Shown here piece after piece: positions 2,859 to 60,650 of a stretch of 64,000 nt of DNA. The notes beneath the pieces were generated by a model, which worked only from the letters and a program-made list of their open reading frames with translations, did no database searches and was not told the DNA's origin. The DNA comes from Antedon mediterranea. Lineage: Eukaryota; Animalia; Echinodermata. The stretch covers positions 588,201 to 652,200 of the forward strand of contig NC_092679.1 of NCBI RefSeq assembly GCF_964355755.1. The letters run 5' to 3'. The position numbers and the translations under genes are program-made. The number at the start of each line of letters is the position of its first letter. Positions within the stretch are counted from its first letter, which is position 1.

Positions 2859-5583
2859 TAAAAATAAAAACATATTTTGCTCAAACGAAAACCAAACAAT
2901 AATTTAGTAACAAAACATTATTAGAAGCGGATTTATTTTTTATCAGTTTTACGATTAATGATATAATGCTGCAAAGATTAAAGTTATTTACATAAAACGG
3001 ATTGTAATGATCTGATTTTTCGTTAATTTATTTGCACACATCAGAAGATATAAGATGATGCGAGTAGGAATCGAGAATAATATCTTAAAATGACATAATA
3101 CTTAGCCATCATACAAAGCATATGAACGTTTGGTAACATTACAGTTGCCAACCTATTTAGTGGACACCCAATCACAAGAAAACAGTGTAGATAGTTCTTG
3201 TTTACGATTGGTCCATTGCCATGCCCTATGTTACGTGTACAGTATGCGTCCTAGTGGGAATCAAGCTTTAGGAGCAGGCTGCAAGTATACATACATACAT
3301 ACATACATACATACAAATATACAAATGTTTAATTGAACCAACATTGAGGTCGAATTGGCAGATAGGTCAGCATCTTTTATGTACATGAACCCGTTACAAA
3401 ACACATAACACACAATTTCATAACAATTTCAGTGTACAATATATAGGTTTGCCATTGACTAATAAATGTGAACACAAAATGAAATTATTGTTTATTGAAG
3501 TTATGCAAGAGAACTGAAAATACAGCAATTGTGATTGACAAATATTACTATAAAGCGGGGTAAAATATTCAATAATGTATTGAATATTATACACCATACT
3601 ACTGGATAAATTACAGAATACGAACATCGCATACAGTTTACGGCAAGGATATGCACGTATATTGTGTACTATCGATTTTTATTAATTAAATATTTTGTAG
3701 AATTGACTGAAAGATTTTGGTATCCATTTCTTTATTTCAAATTAGATTGGATTTAATGATGAGATCTTTCCGTTGTTAATGAAGAATATCGTATAATAAT
3801 TTCCGACATAAACCAATTCGGGGTAGCGTGTACTGAGCTAGCTGGTGTATTGTAGTGTAGTGACCAGCACCTAAAGTATGTCGTGTTTCTCATTACGCAT
3901 GTAATTACAATTATATATATTTAATAAGTAATCATTGCAGTAGTTCATCTGTTCAACTAGGCCGCAACATCAAAGAATAAATTAGTAGTGAGATATTTAA
4001 TGTTTCCCAAAACATGAACAAAAAAAGTTATTAATTTTCGGCGTTTCGATGATGTTTATCTGTTCCAAGCATTATACGTATGAAACGCTATGTGTGCCAA
4101 AAATATTTATCTTTTTAACAATATTAAGTGAATCGCCGTCTTATAGTCGGATAGATATCACCGTAGTACATTAGGATGTCCTTATACAGTGATTCCCAGT
4201 CACTGTAATCAATTACATCACTGGTAGTCATAATACAAACGGTCTATCAAACAGTTTTGTATGTATGCATACCGCACGTCACTGAAAATGCGTTTCATAG
4301 GATTATAATATTACGTTAATTTCTAGTTCATTATGCGTGTGTGCTATTTACATACATTGACTTGACAAACTCCGCTCGGCTTGCTTTTAACATCATTTTT
4401 ATGGCTTATTTTATACTCTGACTTATACGTTACAATCCATTGAATAAGAAGTTACTCCCGAATAATCAATTTTAGATGTTTTTAAATAAAACGCACGCGA
4501 TGTAAATATAAATTCAGATTGTTGTGATATGGAGAACAACGCCAACGGCATTATTATTTATTCTACTGCGTAGAACCAGACCACTAACTATCTTTTAATG
4601 TAAAAATTACAACTGTTAATATGTATTGCAAGCTGCTGTCACTTTATTTCTTCTCTTTTCTTTGCTACTTATTGTTAATTTTTTTATTACTAAATTTGGA
4701 CAGCAATGTCTGATAGGCTAGCAACATAACGAAGAAATGAAGCGCGTATATTAGTGATCCATAAAATGATACATGGACGCGCTAGCGCTACCGTTGACAA
4801 GGCGATAGTTGATCACGTGTTATTAAATTATTAAATGTCAATTGTATCATTTATAACTAATTATCTAGCATTTATATTTAAAACAACATTACAATACATT
4901 TAAAAGTCATTCATTCTGAAACATGTTCAAACATTCGACTGAATGCAAGTTTAATTGATTATGTGTTACTCATTTGTTCACAACAGCATCATAAAATAAA
5001 TCAATCCTACACAACTTAAAAAAATGTTTTTAAAACATTAAATTCTATTCTATTTCATAACTCAATTATTCTGTTTAATCTACTAAAAAATCTTAAACCG
5101 CGCCAGCATACTCTACGTGCCTATCGAATAAAGTTATTCTGCGCATGTCATGCTGAGTATGCGCGCACAATTGCCTATGTTACTCGATACGCGCGACGCG
5201 GTGATGTTTCGTGAAAACGAAAATTTGAAATTGGGAGAATGAGATGGATATTAAAATTGGCTAATCATACCATCCACCGTATAATTATTTAAATCACATA
5301 AAACATTGTATGACCTATATGACCGTTAGTTCACACTACTCGAATAATAACGGCATAGATGATGTTATGTTTTTGCTTACGATACATATATAATGCCACA
5401 TCACAATCATATGACAAGTTGACATTGATGTGATGTAGGATGTAATCCCATAATGCATTGCTGCAAATCTCTCGCAAATCTCGATAATGCTAACTGTAAC
5501 ACTTTCAAAGATAACGCATAACAAACAGAAAATGGCAACTGAAATATGAAAGTGGGCCTATTATACGGATAGGAATGACCGTA

Positions 5584-24111: not shown

Positions 24112-24270
24112 TACACACATCCCAAACTTTATGTGACAACAAAATGTGATGTGCCCATATAATAATGGACATGATGATGTCATATCACTACTATATTTGG
24201 GCATATCACTACTATATTTGAGCACAGCACACTTTTTTTGTCAAACTAGTTTCATAGTGTAGACAGAGCT
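24112..24270. mobile_element. MITE family A copy
   Basis: Right TIR ATAGTGTAGACAGAGCT plus TAA; internal motif conserved. Confidence 0.8.
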
Positions 24271-34022: not shown

Positions 34023-34105
34023 TTGTGATTTGTCAGGCTTCCAACCAATCATAAAATAGAGTTCAAATGTAGCGGGAACTGTACCATCTTCATTTCCATA
34101 CATGT
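34023..34105 (-). CDS. NDUFAF5: NDUFAF5 coding exon (83 nt; (D)MYGNEDGTVPATFELYFMIGWKPDKSQ)
   Basis: Within ORF 33870..34124. cttttcttAG acceptor, GTAAGT donor. MYxNEDGxVPAT...MIGWK motif. Confidence 0.95.
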
Positions 34106-34160
34106 CTAAGAAAAGGAAAGTCACTAGTTTTAAACTCTGAAAAGTAATAACGGTATCAAA

Positions 34161-55737: not shown

Positions 55738-57888
55738 GTCTAGTATATTACGATTGAGTTCGCTATTGGAGTTCCCCAGGTCTAGTATATTACGACTGAG
55801 TTTGCTATTGGAGTTCCCCAGTGTCTAGTATATTACGACTGAGTTCGCTATTGGAGTTCCCCAGGTCTAGTATATTACGACTGAGTTCGCTATTGGAGTT
55901 CCCCAGGTCTAGTATGTTACGACTGAGTTCGCTATTGGAGTTCCCCAGGTCTAGTTTATTTCGACTGAGTTTGCTATTGGAGTTCCCCAGGTCTAGTATA
56001 TTACGACTGAGTTCGCTATTGGAGTTCCCCAGTGTCTAGTATGTTACGACTGAGTTCGCTATTGGAGTTCCCCAGGTCTAGTTTATTTCGACTGAGTTCG
56101 CTATTGGAGTTCCCCAGTGTCTAGTATATTACGACTGAGTTCGCTATTGGAGTTCCCCAGTGTCTAGTATATTACGACCGAGTTCGCTATTGGAGTTCCC
56201 CAGGTCTAGTATGTTACGACTGAGTTTGCTATTGGAGTTCCCCAGGTCTAGTATGTTACGACTGAGTTTGCTATTGGAGTTCCCCAGGTCTAGTATGTTA
56301 CGACTGAGTTCGCTATTGGAGTTCCCCAGGTCTAGTATATTACGACTGAGTTCGCTATTGGAGTTCCCCAGTGTCTAGTATATTACGACTGAGTTCGCTA
56401 TTGGAGTTCCCCAGTGTCTAGTATGTTACGACTGAGTTTGCTATTGGAGTTCCCCAGGTCTAGTATATTACGACTGAGTTCGCTATTGGAGTTCCCCAGG
56501 TCTAGTATATTACGACTGAGTTCGCTATTGGAGTTCCCCAGTGTCTAGTATATTACGACTGAGTTCGCTATTGGAGTTCCCCAGTGTCTAGTATATTACG
56601 ACTGAGTTTGCTATTGGAGTTCCCCAGGTCTAGTATGTTACGACTGAGTTCGCTATTGGAGTTCCCCAGGTCTAGTATATTACGACTGAGTTCGCTATTG
56701 GAGTTCCCCAGGTCTAGTATATTACGACTGAGTTCGCTATTGGAGTTCCCCAGTGTCTAGTATATTACGACTGAGTTCGCTATTGGAGTTCCCCAGTGTC
56801 TAGTATATTACGACTGAGTTTGCTATTAGAGTTCCCCAGGTCTAGTATATTACGACTGAGTTCGCTATTGGAGTTCCCCAGGTCTAGTATATTACGACTG
56901 AGTTCGCTATTGGAGTTCCCCAGTGTCTAGTATATTACGACTGAGTTCGCTATTGGAGTTCCCCAGTGTCTAGTATATTACGACTGAGTTTGCTATTGGA
57001 GTTCCCCAGGTCTAGTATGTTACGACTGAGTTCGCTATTGGAGTTCCCCAGGTCTAGTATATTACGACTGAGTTCGCTATTGGAGTTCCCCAGGTCTAGT
57101 ATATTACGACTGAGTTCGCTATTGGAGTTCCCCAGGTCTAGTATATTACGACTGAGTTCGCTATTGGAGTTCCCCAGGTCTAGTATATTACGATTGAGTT
57201 CGATATTGGAGTTCCCCAGGTCTAGTATGTTACGACTGAGTTCGCTATTGGAGTTCCCCAGGTCTAGTATATTACGACTGAGTTTGCTATTGGGGTTCCC
57301 CAGGTCTAGTATATTACGACTGAGTTCGCTATTGGAGTTCCCCAGGTCTAGTATGTTACGACTGAGTTCGCTATTGGAGTTCCCCAGGTCTAGTATGTTA
57401 CGACTGAGTTCGCTATTGGAGTTCCCCAGGTCTAGTATGTTACGACTGAGTTCGCTATTGGAGTTCCCCAGGTCTAGTATATTACGACTGAGTTCGCTAT
57501 TGGAGTTCCCCAGTGTCTAGTATATTACGACTGAGTTCGCTATTGGAGTTCCCCAGTGTCTAGTATGTTACGACTGAGTTTGCTATTGGAGTTCCCCAGG
57601 TCTAGTATATTACGACTGAGTTCGCTATTGGAGTTCCCCAGGTCTAGTATATTACGACTGAGTTCGCTATTGGAGTTCCCCAGGTCTAGTATATTACGAC
57701 TGAGTTCGCTATTGGAGTTCCCCAGGTCTAGTATATTACGACTGAGTTCGCTATTGGAGTTCCCCAGGTCTAGTATATTACGATTGAGTTCGATATTGGA
57801 GTTCCCCAGGTCTAGTATGTTACGACTGAGTTCGCTATTGGAGTTCCCCAGGTCTAGTATATTACGACTGAGTTTGCTATTGGGGTTC
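55738..57888. repeat. 42/43-bp satellite, left part (GGTCTAGTATATTACGACTGAGTTCGCTATTGGAGTTCCCCA)
   Basis: About 50 units with higher-order variant patterns; 14-aa periodic ORFs. Confidence 0.95.
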
Positions 57889-60189
57889 CACATCCACGTC
57901 AAACAGCGAAAATGGGACATTAAGTGTTCCGAGAGCCGTTTTCATTGTTTAAGTTAGCCGGAGCCTTTTTCGATTGGCTATAAATAGAAAGTTACCGAGC
58001 ATTTCGAGCGACGCGAGTTCTGACTTCCGTGTTTTATAGGCTGTCTAAATTTCCCTTTTAACGGGTTTATATTAAATTATATTGTTGTTTGATTTATTTC
58101 TGTTTATAAAGAACATTTATATTAAACAAAAACCACAACAATAGCAATTTTAGTTGATTATGGATTAATTTATTCGAATTCTAAGATAAACGTCTAAGCC
58201 AAGTGTAAACGTAAACAAAGCGAGTCATACGGCGAAAACAAAAAAGTGAAAACTAACTAATTTGTTAAAATAGCTAACATTAATTTGCAATTTTTAAATG
58301 AAATTCTGAAAACGCTATAATATAGTCTTATATGCATTTTCAAAGATTTCCAAATATAAGCTTGGGGTTATTTTTCAAACAAATTCTATAAGGAGTTGAA
58401 GATAGTGTATTTTGAGCGAAAGTGCGGTGCGCGTAGGCCTAGGAAGACACGGCAGGGCTGGAATACTCGTTTCCTTAGGCGACGAGAACGACGGAAGATG
58501 CGCTCCATCACTGTGCTCTCAATTTTAGTTCTTGTTAAGTGGATGATGCAGAATCTTATAATATGGGCTTATAAATTTTAAAATAAAGTGCTCAACTTTC
58601 ATTTTTCTTAAAATTATGAAGATTAGTGTGAAGTGGGGACTGTCTGCATGCCTGAACAGCTGACTTGGTAAAATACTGAAAAATCAGTCAATTAGTTAGG
58701 CCTAGGCTAATTAATTAATGTACAGTATATAATGTCATATTTTTATGAATAGAGCTAAATCTACTAGTAGGCTTACTAGTAATCTCATAATAAATCTAAT
58801 AATGTCACCTGTCACTAACATATGATTGATTTAAGTATATGCTGAAAATGTTTACTTTTTATCGGAGCTAAAATGAAATTTCGCAGTTCCCTGCTTTTTA
58901 TTATAATAATGGAGCAATAAATGAAATACAAATACACACCAATTAACATTTTAACTTTTAATATTATCACAAATTTCACCTTAAAAATCAGACAAGTTTT
59001 CTACATCAACTTAGCTAACATTTGTACTAAGCCTAATCTTCAATAGATTTACTATTACTGTAGTAGGCCTATTACCATTATTTATTTGCCAATTTGAAAT
59101 GTACATTTAAACTTTATTAAACTACTGCACAACAACCAACTGCCACTTGAACCTTTAAATAAGTAAATTAGGATAAGTTAAAGTTTTTACAAAATAAATG
59201 TCTTTTTGGCAATACATCTATAGATATCCATAATTACAGTATTAATAGTGCTTTTTCAAATTATATGCCAGAAGTAAATTAATATGACTCATAAGAAATT
59301 GTTGTTGATTTAATGCTATTTGTATTGAAGTATGTAGAACAATCCTCTGTGGTCTGTAAAAAAACAACAACATTCAATTAATAATAATCATTATTTAATT
59401 ATATTTGTATATTTATTCTTATTTTCTTAGTTAGGCCTATAAACAACACGCGCCTGACAATCAACACGCGCCAATAATGCACGCACTACCCCACTATTAT
59501 AGGCTAAAGCCTGGCTCTCCTACTGTACTACTAGGCCTAGACTATATTGATTTATAAATAAAACAAAGAGGCTTTGTAGAGTTTTATGATTTAAAACAGC
59601 TTTCCTATATATTATATGTTTCCCTTATTAATTTACAAAACCACATTTCTTATCTTATGGCGTAAAAAATGATTTTAGCTACAACCATGTGTTCCATTTT
59701 CGATAGTGAAATACCCAAGAAGGCACATGTTTAAGCAGCCATTAAAAAAAAATAAAAAATAACCCCAACGAGATTTTTTTATTAACTACTATTGAAAAAT
59801 CAAATATTCAGAAACTATAAAACCCACCTTCTCAAAAAATTGCGTTGTTTTATTACAGCCTCAACAAATTAGACGAAATTTTAACATTCGAATAGCCTAA
59901 AATTGTTTAAAAAACATCGGTGTAATTCACCCTTGTTTCATAAAAATATAATGGGTTCGTCGATTAAAAAACAATATCACGTGGTTCGTAGATGCCTTGT
60001 CAAAGGTTTTCATGAATTATTCATTAGTAAATAAATCCAAAAGTTCCAATTGGCCAGTTTGCAAAAACCTAAGATTTACTTTTCAAAACAAAGTTGCTTC
60101 CGGGTAATTGTCAACGCTGTCTCGTGTGCAAAAACGATTCGCTGCCGATAGAGGGCTCACTACTTTTTGTCCCTGGTGAATTGAGTGTG
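57889..60189. mobile_element. 2301-bp non-autonomous DNA transposon with CAC...GTG termini and 4-bp TSD GTTC (Chapaev-like; RSS-like ends)
   Basis: GTTC at 57885-88 and 60190-93. Removing the element and one TSD exactly restores the satellite unit TATTGGGGTTCCCCAGG. No transposase ORF is visible. Confidence 0.88.
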
Positions 60190-60508
60190 GTTCCCCAGGT
60201 CTAGTATATTACGACTGAGTTCGCTATTGGAGTTCCCCAGGTCTAGTATGTTACGACTGAGTTCGCTATTGGAGTTCCCCAGGTCTAGTATGTTACGACT
60301 GAGTTCGCTATTGGAGTTCCCCAGGTCTAGTATGTTACGACTGAGTTCGCTATTGGAGTTCCCCAGGTCTAGTATATTACGACTGAGTTCGCTATTGGAG
60401 TTCCCCAGTGTCTAGTATATTACGACTGAGTTCGCTATTGGAGTTCCCCAGTGTCTAGTATATTACGACTGAGTTTGCTATTGGAGTTCCCCAGGTCTAG
60501 TATGTTAT
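60190..60508. repeat. 42/43-bp satellite, right part
   Basis: Resumes in register after the insertion. Confidence 0.95.
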
Positions 60509-60554: not shown

Positions 60555-60650
60555 GACATGATGATGTCATATCACTACCATATTTTGGCATATCAAAACC
60601 ATCACATCACACTTTTTTTGTCAAACTAGTTTGATAGTGTAGACAGAGCT
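60555..60650. mobile_element. MITE family A, right half
   Basis: Ends AGTTTGATAGTGTAGACAGAGCT plus TTA. Confidence 0.8.

What the first reader, a model, noticed from the sequence alone, without database searches (positions are those of the whole stretch)
57889..60189. Transposon with asymmetric V(D)J-RSS-like ends (12-nt and 21-nt spacers) and a 4-bp TSD
Seen in sequence: the element is precisely delimited because it interrupts a satellite and has a GTTC TSD. Its ends are not ordinary continuous TIRs. The right end read inward is CACACTC + 12 nt (AATTCACCAGGG) + ACAAAAAGT, a 7/9 match to the RSS nonamer ACAAAAACC at exactly 12-RSS spacing. The left end is CACATCC + 21 nt + ACATTAAGT. The only blocks shared between the ends are terminal CACA and GGGACAwwAAGT, offset by 9 nt (close to one helical turn), which recalls the 12/23 rule. 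Established: RAG/ProtoRAG and Transib use CAC termini with 5-bp TSDs. Chapaev (CMC) elements have CAC...GTG ends, 4-bp TSDs and an N-terminal region related to RAG1. Inference: this is a non-autonomous member of a Chapaev/RAG-related family using bipartite, spacer-asymmetric recognition signals. Its autonomous partner would be elsewhere in the genome.
Basis: partly seen in the sequence, partly recalled or inferred. Interest (0 to 1): 0.85.

Follow-up and report, generated by a model that had tools for sequence, protein, structure and literature searches.

The report
Gene-less transposon with unequal ends
This is a real, gene-less jumping-DNA copy from a many-copy family, likely moved by a Chapaev-type enzyme distantly related to the antibody-gene recombinase RAG1; its two ends carry a similar inner motif 9 bases out of step, but the likeness to the 12/23 antibody-recombination signals is only loose.

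Summary
The element is real: 2,301 bp (57889-60189), CAC...GTG ends, no coding remnant. An uninterrupted twin of the site lies 590 bp upstream (299/300 identical on each side). Contigs from other copies break at the same left base and, in one listed contig, the same right base. The 4-bp GTTC duplication therefore stands, for this one copy. It is a multi-copy family in two coded organisms.

At the left end, 20 of 21 listed pieces have no gap between tip and inner block. A 19%-diverged relative appears to keep positions 1-15 and 27-50 and vary 16-26 (inferred by subtraction). So the end looks bipartite, but with blocks of about 15 and 23 bp, not heptamer and nonamer.

The RSS reading is weak: left spacer 21 (outside 23±1), offset 9 not 11, left nonamer 5/9 without an essential A. 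The shared block alone has P 0.08-0.15. Right-end conservation and the transposase could not be tested; no genome is held.

Verdict: most likely a new non-autonomous Chapaev-type family with unequal ends. Asymmetric ends are already known in Transib and RAGL-A; I found no such report for Chapaev.

The parts
57889..60189 (+). Non-autonomous DNA transposon, 2,301 bp, 31% GC, CAC...GTG termini, no coding remnant found
   Evidence: boundaries from other copies
57885..57888 (+). Left copy of the 4-bp target-site duplication GTTC
60190..60193 (+). Right copy of the 4-bp target-site duplication GTTC
57889..57903 (+). Left tip, positions 1-15; 0-1 differences in a relative that is 19% diverged over 81 bp (inferred by subtraction)
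57904..57914 (+). Variable stretch of the left end, positions 16-26; 5 of 11 letters differ in the diverged relative, length unchanged
   Evidence: loose-end and piece tables
57914..57925 (+).
57920..57970 (+). Two imperfect subterminal direct repeats (57920-57942 and 57949-57970), the first overlapping the shared block; a weaker third copy near 57989
   Evidence: significance not tested
57973..57985 (+). CCAAT-box-like and TATA-like motifs; possible leftover promoter, which would mark this as the 5' end (inferred)
60162..60173 (-). Right copy of the shared block GGGACAAAAAGT (positions 17-28 from the right tip), holding the 7/9 nonamer match at spacer 12
   Evidence: conservation across copies not visible
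60183..60189 (-). Right terminal heptamer CACACTC (5/7 to the RSS heptamer)
55738..57888 (.). 42-bp satellite, left part; carries a 590-bp higher-order repeat
60190..60507 (.). 42-bp satellite, right part; continues the higher-order repeat in register
57290..57303 (+). Twin empty site: the same variant satellite unit, uninterrupted, 590 bp upstream
   Evidence: 299/300 identical left and 299/300 right after removing the element and one GTTC

Best explanation
This is a non-autonomous cut-and-paste DNA transposon, likely mobilised in trans by a Chapaev-type (CMCT clade) DDE transposase that likely reads each end at two places, the CAC tip and an inner GGACA-containing site lying 9 bp further in at the left end than at the right. 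Shown: boundaries, the 4-bp duplication at this site, many copies in two organisms, no coding remnant, and no gap between left tip and inner block in 20 of 21 listed pieces. Inferred from difference counts: the left tip (about 15 bp) and an inner run (about positions 27-49) are conserved while positions 16-26 drift. Inferred from known families: the catalytic core would cut at CAC and join the ends to target strands 4 bp apart, and a separate DNA-binding domain would hold the inner site, with extra subterminal repeats on the left. The result would be a left/right-asymmetric transpososome. This works like other unequal-ended transposons, but the ends are not 12/23 RSSs by the published definition.
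For: CAC...GTG plus a 3-4 bp TSD are the stated Chapaev hallmarks (PMC4079192 passages). TSD and twin empty site. Family of many copies with shared ends and variable, internally deleted interiors (tables 2, 5). In X6 the last 20 bp of the right end carry about 1,620 depth (my arithmetic from the 60170-60228 bin) against 1,661 at the left tip. Diverged relative (X3 record 11; same family as X1 record 7 and X8 record 27): 15 differences and no gap in 81 bp. Five fall in positions 16-26, 0-1 in 1-15, none is listed in 32-50, and 9-10 remain for 27-81. Chance of no change in a given 19 positions is 0.011; a conserved tip plus an inner run of 19 or more is 0.021. Organism B's main subfamily also shows no listed change in positions 31-54 (P 0.12 for 19 positions). 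One B locus matches only positions 1-37, ending exactly at the block's last base (X6 record 18, X8 record 25).
Against: No transposase was seen, so Chapaev rests on termini and one TSD. TSD length is labile in the Transib lineage (bioRxiv 10.64898/2026.08.26.747230 passages), and AcademX also makes 3-4 bp TSDs (PMC10045372 passage). The right block's conservation is untested. The shared block alone is not significant (P 0.08-0.15), nor is a gapped alignment of the two ends (P 0.15-0.23). The positional inference assumes the tool hides differences within about 30 letters of a piece's end (my reading). It rests on two non-independent subfamilies and was made after seeing the data; for the 11 block positions alone P is 0.089. 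Low-depth copies lose or cut the left block (joints 57909-57976 in X1 and 57921-58450 in X6). One old B copy has changes at positions 33-50, the diverged relative changes the block's first G, organism A's form of the B-like subfamily changes position 50, and record 17 has one gap of unknown place within positions 1-53.
Confidence: 0.5

Rival explanations
1. The offset block is partly a coincidence. The element has a short, degenerate, in-register TIR, and the conserved inner run at the left end is a left-specific binding site or promoter part with no functional counterpart at the right.
For: In-register match 8/12 and 13/25. Shared block P 0.08-0.15. The left conserved run extends about 12 bp beyond the shared block and overlaps left-only subterminal repeats next to CCAAT/TATA motifs. 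One-sided subterminal binding is known for the hAT element Hermes (PMC10368747 abstract). Published Chapaev3 termini are imperfect (PMC4079192 Fig. S6 text).
Against: The best shared block between the ends (10/12) falls inside the stretch that appears conserved at the left end, and one B locus stops matching exactly at its last base.
Confidence: 0.2
2. One reading: the ends are true heptamer-spacer-nonamer signals of a Transib or RAGL-A type element, paired by a 12/23-like rule, and this copy happens to have a 4-bp duplication.
For: The right end has CAC, spacer 12 and a 7/9 nonamer with both essential A's (P 0.006-0.05). Non-autonomous TransibN1-3_AG have 12/23-like ends (PMC1131882) and PflRAGL-A has a 10-bp asymmetry (PMC10462144). 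RAG transposition sometimes gives 4-bp TSDs, and Transib TSD length can vary.
Against: 4-bp TSD here, where protostome RAGL TSDs are reported as invariably 5 bp (PMC7204232) and canonical Transib TSDs as 5 bp. Heptamers match only 4/7 and 5/7. Left spacer is 21, offset 9, left nonamer 5/9 with T at position 5. The conserved left blocks are much longer than 7 and 9 bp. There is no AAA at positions 8-10 as in protostome RAGL TIRs (left ACG, right AAT).
Confidence: 0.15
3. The element belongs to another superfamily with 4-bp TSDs and unequal ends, such as AcademX, or to an unclassified group; the CAC tip is then not a RAG-clade mark.
For: AcademX makes 3-4 bp TSDs (PMC10045372 passage). No transposase is available to decide.
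Against: CAC...GTG is described as invariable for Chapaev, and CA..TG as typical of the CMCT clade. Academ termini could not be checked; the Kojima 2020 paper is not held.
Confidence: 0.12

Closest known systems
Chapaev DNA transposons (CMC / CMCT clade; Kapitonov and Jurka 2007 not read, known from PMC4079192, PMC4411706 and PMC12730594 passages)
   Same: CAC...GTG termini, TSD within 3-4 bp, non-autonomous derivatives, imperfect termini.
   Different: No transposase here to confirm membership. A shared inner block offset by 9 bp between the ends was not found described for Chapaev in my searches; Repbase entries could not be seen.
Transib5, Transib2_AG and TransibN1-3_AG (PMC1131882, passages and section 9)
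   Same: CAC tips, non-autonomous families, and an inner conserved block at different distances at the two ends.
   Different: Those have 5-bp TSDs, a CACAATG-type heptamer and RSS12/RSS23-like spacing; here the TSD is 4 bp, the heptamers are CACATCC and CACACTC, and the spacing is 12/21.
PflRAGL-A of Ptychodera flava (PMC10462144, passages and supplement search)
   Same: An extended conserved tip (heptamer plus about 9 bp), a length asymmetry near one helical turn (10 bp there, 9 here), and an inner nonamer-like block.
   Different: RAGL-A has 5-bp TSDs, a near-consensus heptamer, an A-rich TR2 shared by both ends and RAG1L/RAG2L genes; none is seen here.
V(D)J 12/23 recombination signal sequences
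   Same: CAC tip; the right end fits 12-RSS spacing with a 7/9 nonamer.
   Different: The left end fails 23±1 and nonamer position 5; the offset is 9, not 11; conserved blocks appear longer than 7 and 9 bp.
Hermes (hAT) asymmetric subterminal repeats (PMC10368747, abstract and outline only)
   Same: Left and right ends differ, and the left carries extra subterminal repeats.
   Different: Different superfamily and termini; hAT TSDs are 8 bp.

Membership tests
Chapaev (CMC/CMCT) | [quoted passage not shown] | tested here: met
   definition from PMC4079192
Chapaev (CMC/CMCT) | 3-4 bp TSD | tested here: met
   4 bp at the one site where both flanks are known
Chapaev (CMC/CMCT) | DDE transposase with C(2)C and H(3-4)H motifs and an N-terminal Chapa zinc finger | not testable with these tools
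   No ORF over 73 aa wholly inside the element; no Pfam hit of note in 12 of its frames; no genome held
Chapaev (CMC/CMCT) | Repbase rule for non-autonomous families: same TSD length and positions 1-11 align to a known family with at most 1 mismatch | not testable with these tools
   rule from PMC4455052; no Repbase or Dfam library available
Transib / RAGL non-autonomous elements | 5-bp TSD | tested here: not met
   4 bp once both boundaries are fixed by other copies; one site only, and exceptions are reported
Transib / RAGL non-autonomous elements | RSS-like heptamer (CACAATG or CACAGTG); in RAGL an A-rich TR2 at positions 8-10 | tested here: not met
   4/7 and 5/7 to CACAGTG; positions 8-10 are ACG and AAT (definition)
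Transib / RAGL non-autonomous elements | Transib or RAG1L transposase in an autonomous partner | not testable with these tools
   no genome; no transposase family among 146 window ORFs scanned
12/23 RSS pair | Heptamer positions 1-3 CAC at both ends | tested here: met
12/23 RSS pair | Nonamer positions 5 and 6 = AA | tested here: not met
   right met; left at spacer 21 has T at position 5 (definition). At spacer 22 the left has AA there but only 2/9 overall
12/23 RSS pair | Spacers of 12±1 and 23±1 | tested here: not met
   12 and 21, offset 9
12/23 RSS pair | Conserved heptamer and nonamer, spacer variable in sequence but fixed in length | tested here: inconclusive
   left end: fixed length and a variable middle, but conserved blocks of about 15 and 23 bp (inferred); right end not visible
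12/23 RSS pair | Cleavage needs one long and one short end | not testable with these tools
   needs the enzyme and an assay
AcademX | 3-4 bp TSD | tested here: met
AcademX | Characteristic termini and Academ transposase | not tested
   source paper not held; no transposase available

The most novel reading that the evidence does not exclude
Chapaev-type transposases pair one long and one short end, reading an inner site set about one helical turn apart by a domain equivalent to RAG1's nonamer-binding domain. The long/short rule behind 12/23 would then predate the split of Chapaev from Transib/RAG, and this recently inserted family would be a ready test substrate.
Probability: 0.2. Interest if true: 0.75.

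Novelty: new member of a known kind. Interest (0 to 1): 0.4.

Why it matters
The origin of RSS asymmetry is debated: a Transib seed (PMC8355894) or RAGL-A TIRs (PMC10462144). If Chapaev-type elements, a more distant branch of the same transposase clade (PMC4411706, PMC12730594), also use fixed long and short ends, the asymmetry is older than either proposal. This family looks recently active: the insertion postdates a near-identical satellite duplication, and organism B has a homogeneous subfamily. An intact transposase may therefore be found and assayed. On present evidence it is one more non-autonomous CAC-ended family with unequal ends, which many DNA transposons have.

Tried and rejected
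No genome is held, so copies could not be collected by BLAST. No second copy of the element in the window. Pattern scans for the ends found nothing in viral contigs, prokaryote genomes or, for the right end, metagenomes. The two metagenome hits for the left pattern (L001, L002) are chance matches in prokaryote-like coding DNA with no further similarity. No coding remnant: 12 of the 38 listed element frames were scanned with Pfam and gave one weak hit at E 0.06; the longest frame gave no Atlas hit. Of 187 non-repeat window ORFs of 52 aa or more, 146 were scanned and gave three hits below cut-off and no transposase. Rfam found nothing. 5- and 6-bp TSD readings were rejected because they need boundaries that other copies contradict. 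A solo-LTR reading was rejected: the ends are CA...TG, not TG...CA (LTR ends recalled). No RNA holder was listed. Papers not held: Panchin and Moroz 2008 on N-RAG-TP, Yuan and Wessler 2011, Bao 2009, Kojima 2020. PMC3630058 and PMC3014272 gave only Chapaev3 data.

Full report
Observation. The window holds a 2,301-bp, 31% GC insert at 57889-60189 between two parts of a 42-bp satellite. The block GGGACAwwAAGT starts at position 26 on the left and 17 on the right. The satellite has a 590-bp higher-order repeat, so an uninterrupted twin of the site exists at 57290. After removing the element and one GTTC, the flanks match it at 299 of 300 bases on each side, better than any of 12 other unit registers. 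The insertion is therefore later than that duplication, and probably recent (inference).

Boundaries and TSD. At this site alone six registers fit, with duplications of 4, 5 or 6 bp. No genome is held, so I used public runs. Five of 12 listed runs, from two studies of coded organism A, hold over half of the element's sampled words; three runs from one study of organism B hold 7-9%. On the left end (four runs, 78 contigs laid), 19 of the 27 listed pieces start exactly at 57889, 2 start at 57876 and 6 start inside. Seventeen listed contigs carry unrelated flanks directly before 57889; B's two runs share loci, so these are not all independent. On the right, one listed X6 contig has an unrelated flank behind 60189 (82 loose-end rows not shown). 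With these boundaries the ends are CAC...GTG and the duplication is 4 bp. Only this one copy has both flanks known.

Family. All 30 bins of the laid stretch are covered in X1, X3 and X6. In X6 both end regions carry depths of about 1,100-1,900 while much of the interior falls below 250, and many joints skip internal parts. This is the pattern of non-autonomous families that share ends. Depth is not a copy number. No ORF over 73 aa lies wholly inside, and Pfam, the Atlas and Rfam gave nothing useful. No transposase family was found among 146 window ORFs. The left end has CCAAT-like and TATA-like motifs at 57973-57985, perhaps the parent's promoter.

Is the end structure more than chance? From one copy, barely. 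A shared block as good as the observed 10/12 occurs in 7.7% of shuffles and 15% of random window pairs. A nonamer match of 7/9 or better occurs at P 0.006-0.009 for spacer 12, and P 0.04-0.05 if 12±1 or 23±1 is allowed. Gapped local alignments of the two ends are not significant (P 0.15-0.23). The ends also match in register at 8 of 12 and 13 of 25 positions, so the two named blocks are not all they share.

Comparison across copies, left end only. Of 21 listed pieces that run from the tip into the block, 20 have no gap before position 59; record 17 (depth 13) has one gap somewhere in positions 1-53. A diverged relative occurs in both organisms (X3 record 11, X1 record 7, X8 record 27). It matches positions 1-81 with 15 differences and no gap, then becomes unrelated just before the promoter-like motifs. 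Its loose-end letters place 5 differences in positions 16-26, subtraction leaves 0-1 in positions 1-15, and none is listed in 32-50. The remaining 9-10 probably lie beyond position 50. Organism B's main subfamily has 4 differences in positions 1-30 and none listed in 31-54. The chance of sparing a given 19 positions is 0.011 and 0.12 for the two; a conserved tip plus an inner run of 19 or more has P 0.021; the 11 block positions alone have P 0.089. These are after-the-fact tests, and they depend on my reading that the tool hides differences within about 30 letters of a piece's end (record 14 has 8 differences and only 2 are listed).

Results against. Low-depth copies delete or cut the block (joints 57909-57976 and 57921-58450). 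One older B copy has changes through positions 33-50. The diverged relative changes the block's first G, and A's form of the B-like subfamily changes position 50. The inner conserved run is about 23 bp and overlaps imperfect left-only repeats, so it is not a 9-bp nonamer. Letter-level conservation of the right end could not be seen; only its presence at similar depth in X6 could (about 1,620 against 1,661, my arithmetic).

Mechanism. Most likely (0.5) a Chapaev-type DDE transposase supplied in trans cuts at the CAC tips, makes a 4-bp staggered insertion, and holds an inner GGACA site that sits 9 bp deeper on the left. The boundaries, TSD, copy family and fixed left spacing are shown. The two-site reading is inferred from difference counts. 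The enzyme and any long/short pairing rule are untested. Rivals: a degenerate in-register TIR with a left-only inner site (0.2), true RSS-like ends of a Transib or RAGL-A element (0.15), or another superfamily such as AcademX (0.12).

Comparison with what is known. Chapaev hallmarks are CAC...GTG and 3-4 bp TSDs (PMC4079192 passages; supplement passages and part 2 of file 2); both are met, the transposase is untestable. Chapaev is placed with Transib and RAG1 in one clade (PMC4411706 and PMC12730594 passages). 12/23-like ends are already described for Transib5, Transib2_AG and the non-autonomous TransibN1-3_AG (PMC1131882 passages and section 9; PMC8355894 passages). A 10-bp asymmetry is described for PflRAGL-A (PMC10462144 passages and supplement search). 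Those have 5-bp TSDs (also PMC7204232 passages), though 4-bp RAG products and labile Transib TSDs are reported. By the published RSS definition the left end fails on spacer and on nonamer position 5. Unequal ends also occur outside this clade (Hermes, abstract and outline only; piggyBat, search listing only).

Novelty. I found no paper describing offset ends for Chapaev. Searches returned 0 papers; one search returned 4, one search listed 30 of 40 and one search listed 20 of 77, with no such title, and none of the 20 holds the word Chapaev. Repbase Reports and four key papers were not readable, so this is a limited claim. Earlier AI notes of this scan report long/short ends in Chapaev elements of other genomes; they are unchecked leads, not support, but they mean the idea is not unique to this locus. 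I file it as a new member of a known kind, interest 0.4. The bold reading, an ancient long/short pairing rule in Chapaev, gets probability 0.2 and interest 0.75.

Noticed in passing
window 57910-58404, runs X1, X3, X6: A minority subfamily in organism A (contig depth about 4,750-4,930 in X1) carries the same substitutions and indels as the dominant, homogeneous subfamily of organism B (for example 57910, 57947, 58209, 58232, 58342, 58404). Close kinship, introgression or horizontal transfer could each explain it.
   Followed up: no
window 57889-57969, X3 record 11, X1 record 7, X8 record 27: A second family shares only the first 81 bp of the left end (81% identical) and then becomes unrelated, just before the CCAAT/TATA motifs; a candidate sister family or link to the autonomous parent.
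   Followed up: partly
window 58449-59649: At ten listed interior sites all depth in both X1 and X3 differs from the window's letter, so this copy carries private changes although its insertion looks recent.
   Followed up: no
window 55738-60507: The 42-bp satellite has a 590-bp (14-unit) higher-order repeat with copies about 99.7% identical; run X6 shows almost no cover of the satellite flank.
   Followed up: partly
window 57973-57985: CCAAT-box-like and TATA-like motifs 85-97 bp inside the left end; possible promoter carried by every full copy.
   Followed up: no
window 58434, 58697, 59064, 59432, 59532: The palindrome TAGGCCTA occurs 5 times in the 2.3-kb element against 9 times in the other 61.7 kb.
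   Followed up: no
window near 24137(-), 32788, 38271(-), 47792, 53382: Another dispersed repeat family, about 60 bp or longer, with a shared GTCACATAAAGT core; a similar stretch seems to lie near 60560-60640 by eye.
   Followed up: no
window about 34023-34106, minus strand: A short frame that resembles, by recall only, the C-terminal part of the complex I assembly factor NDUFAF5; Pfam and PDB searches gave no hit.
   Followed up: partly
whole window: Very rich in unrelated minisatellites (62 Tandem Repeats Finder rows) at about 27-45% GC, which suggests a large, repeat-rich animal genome (inference).
   Followed up: no
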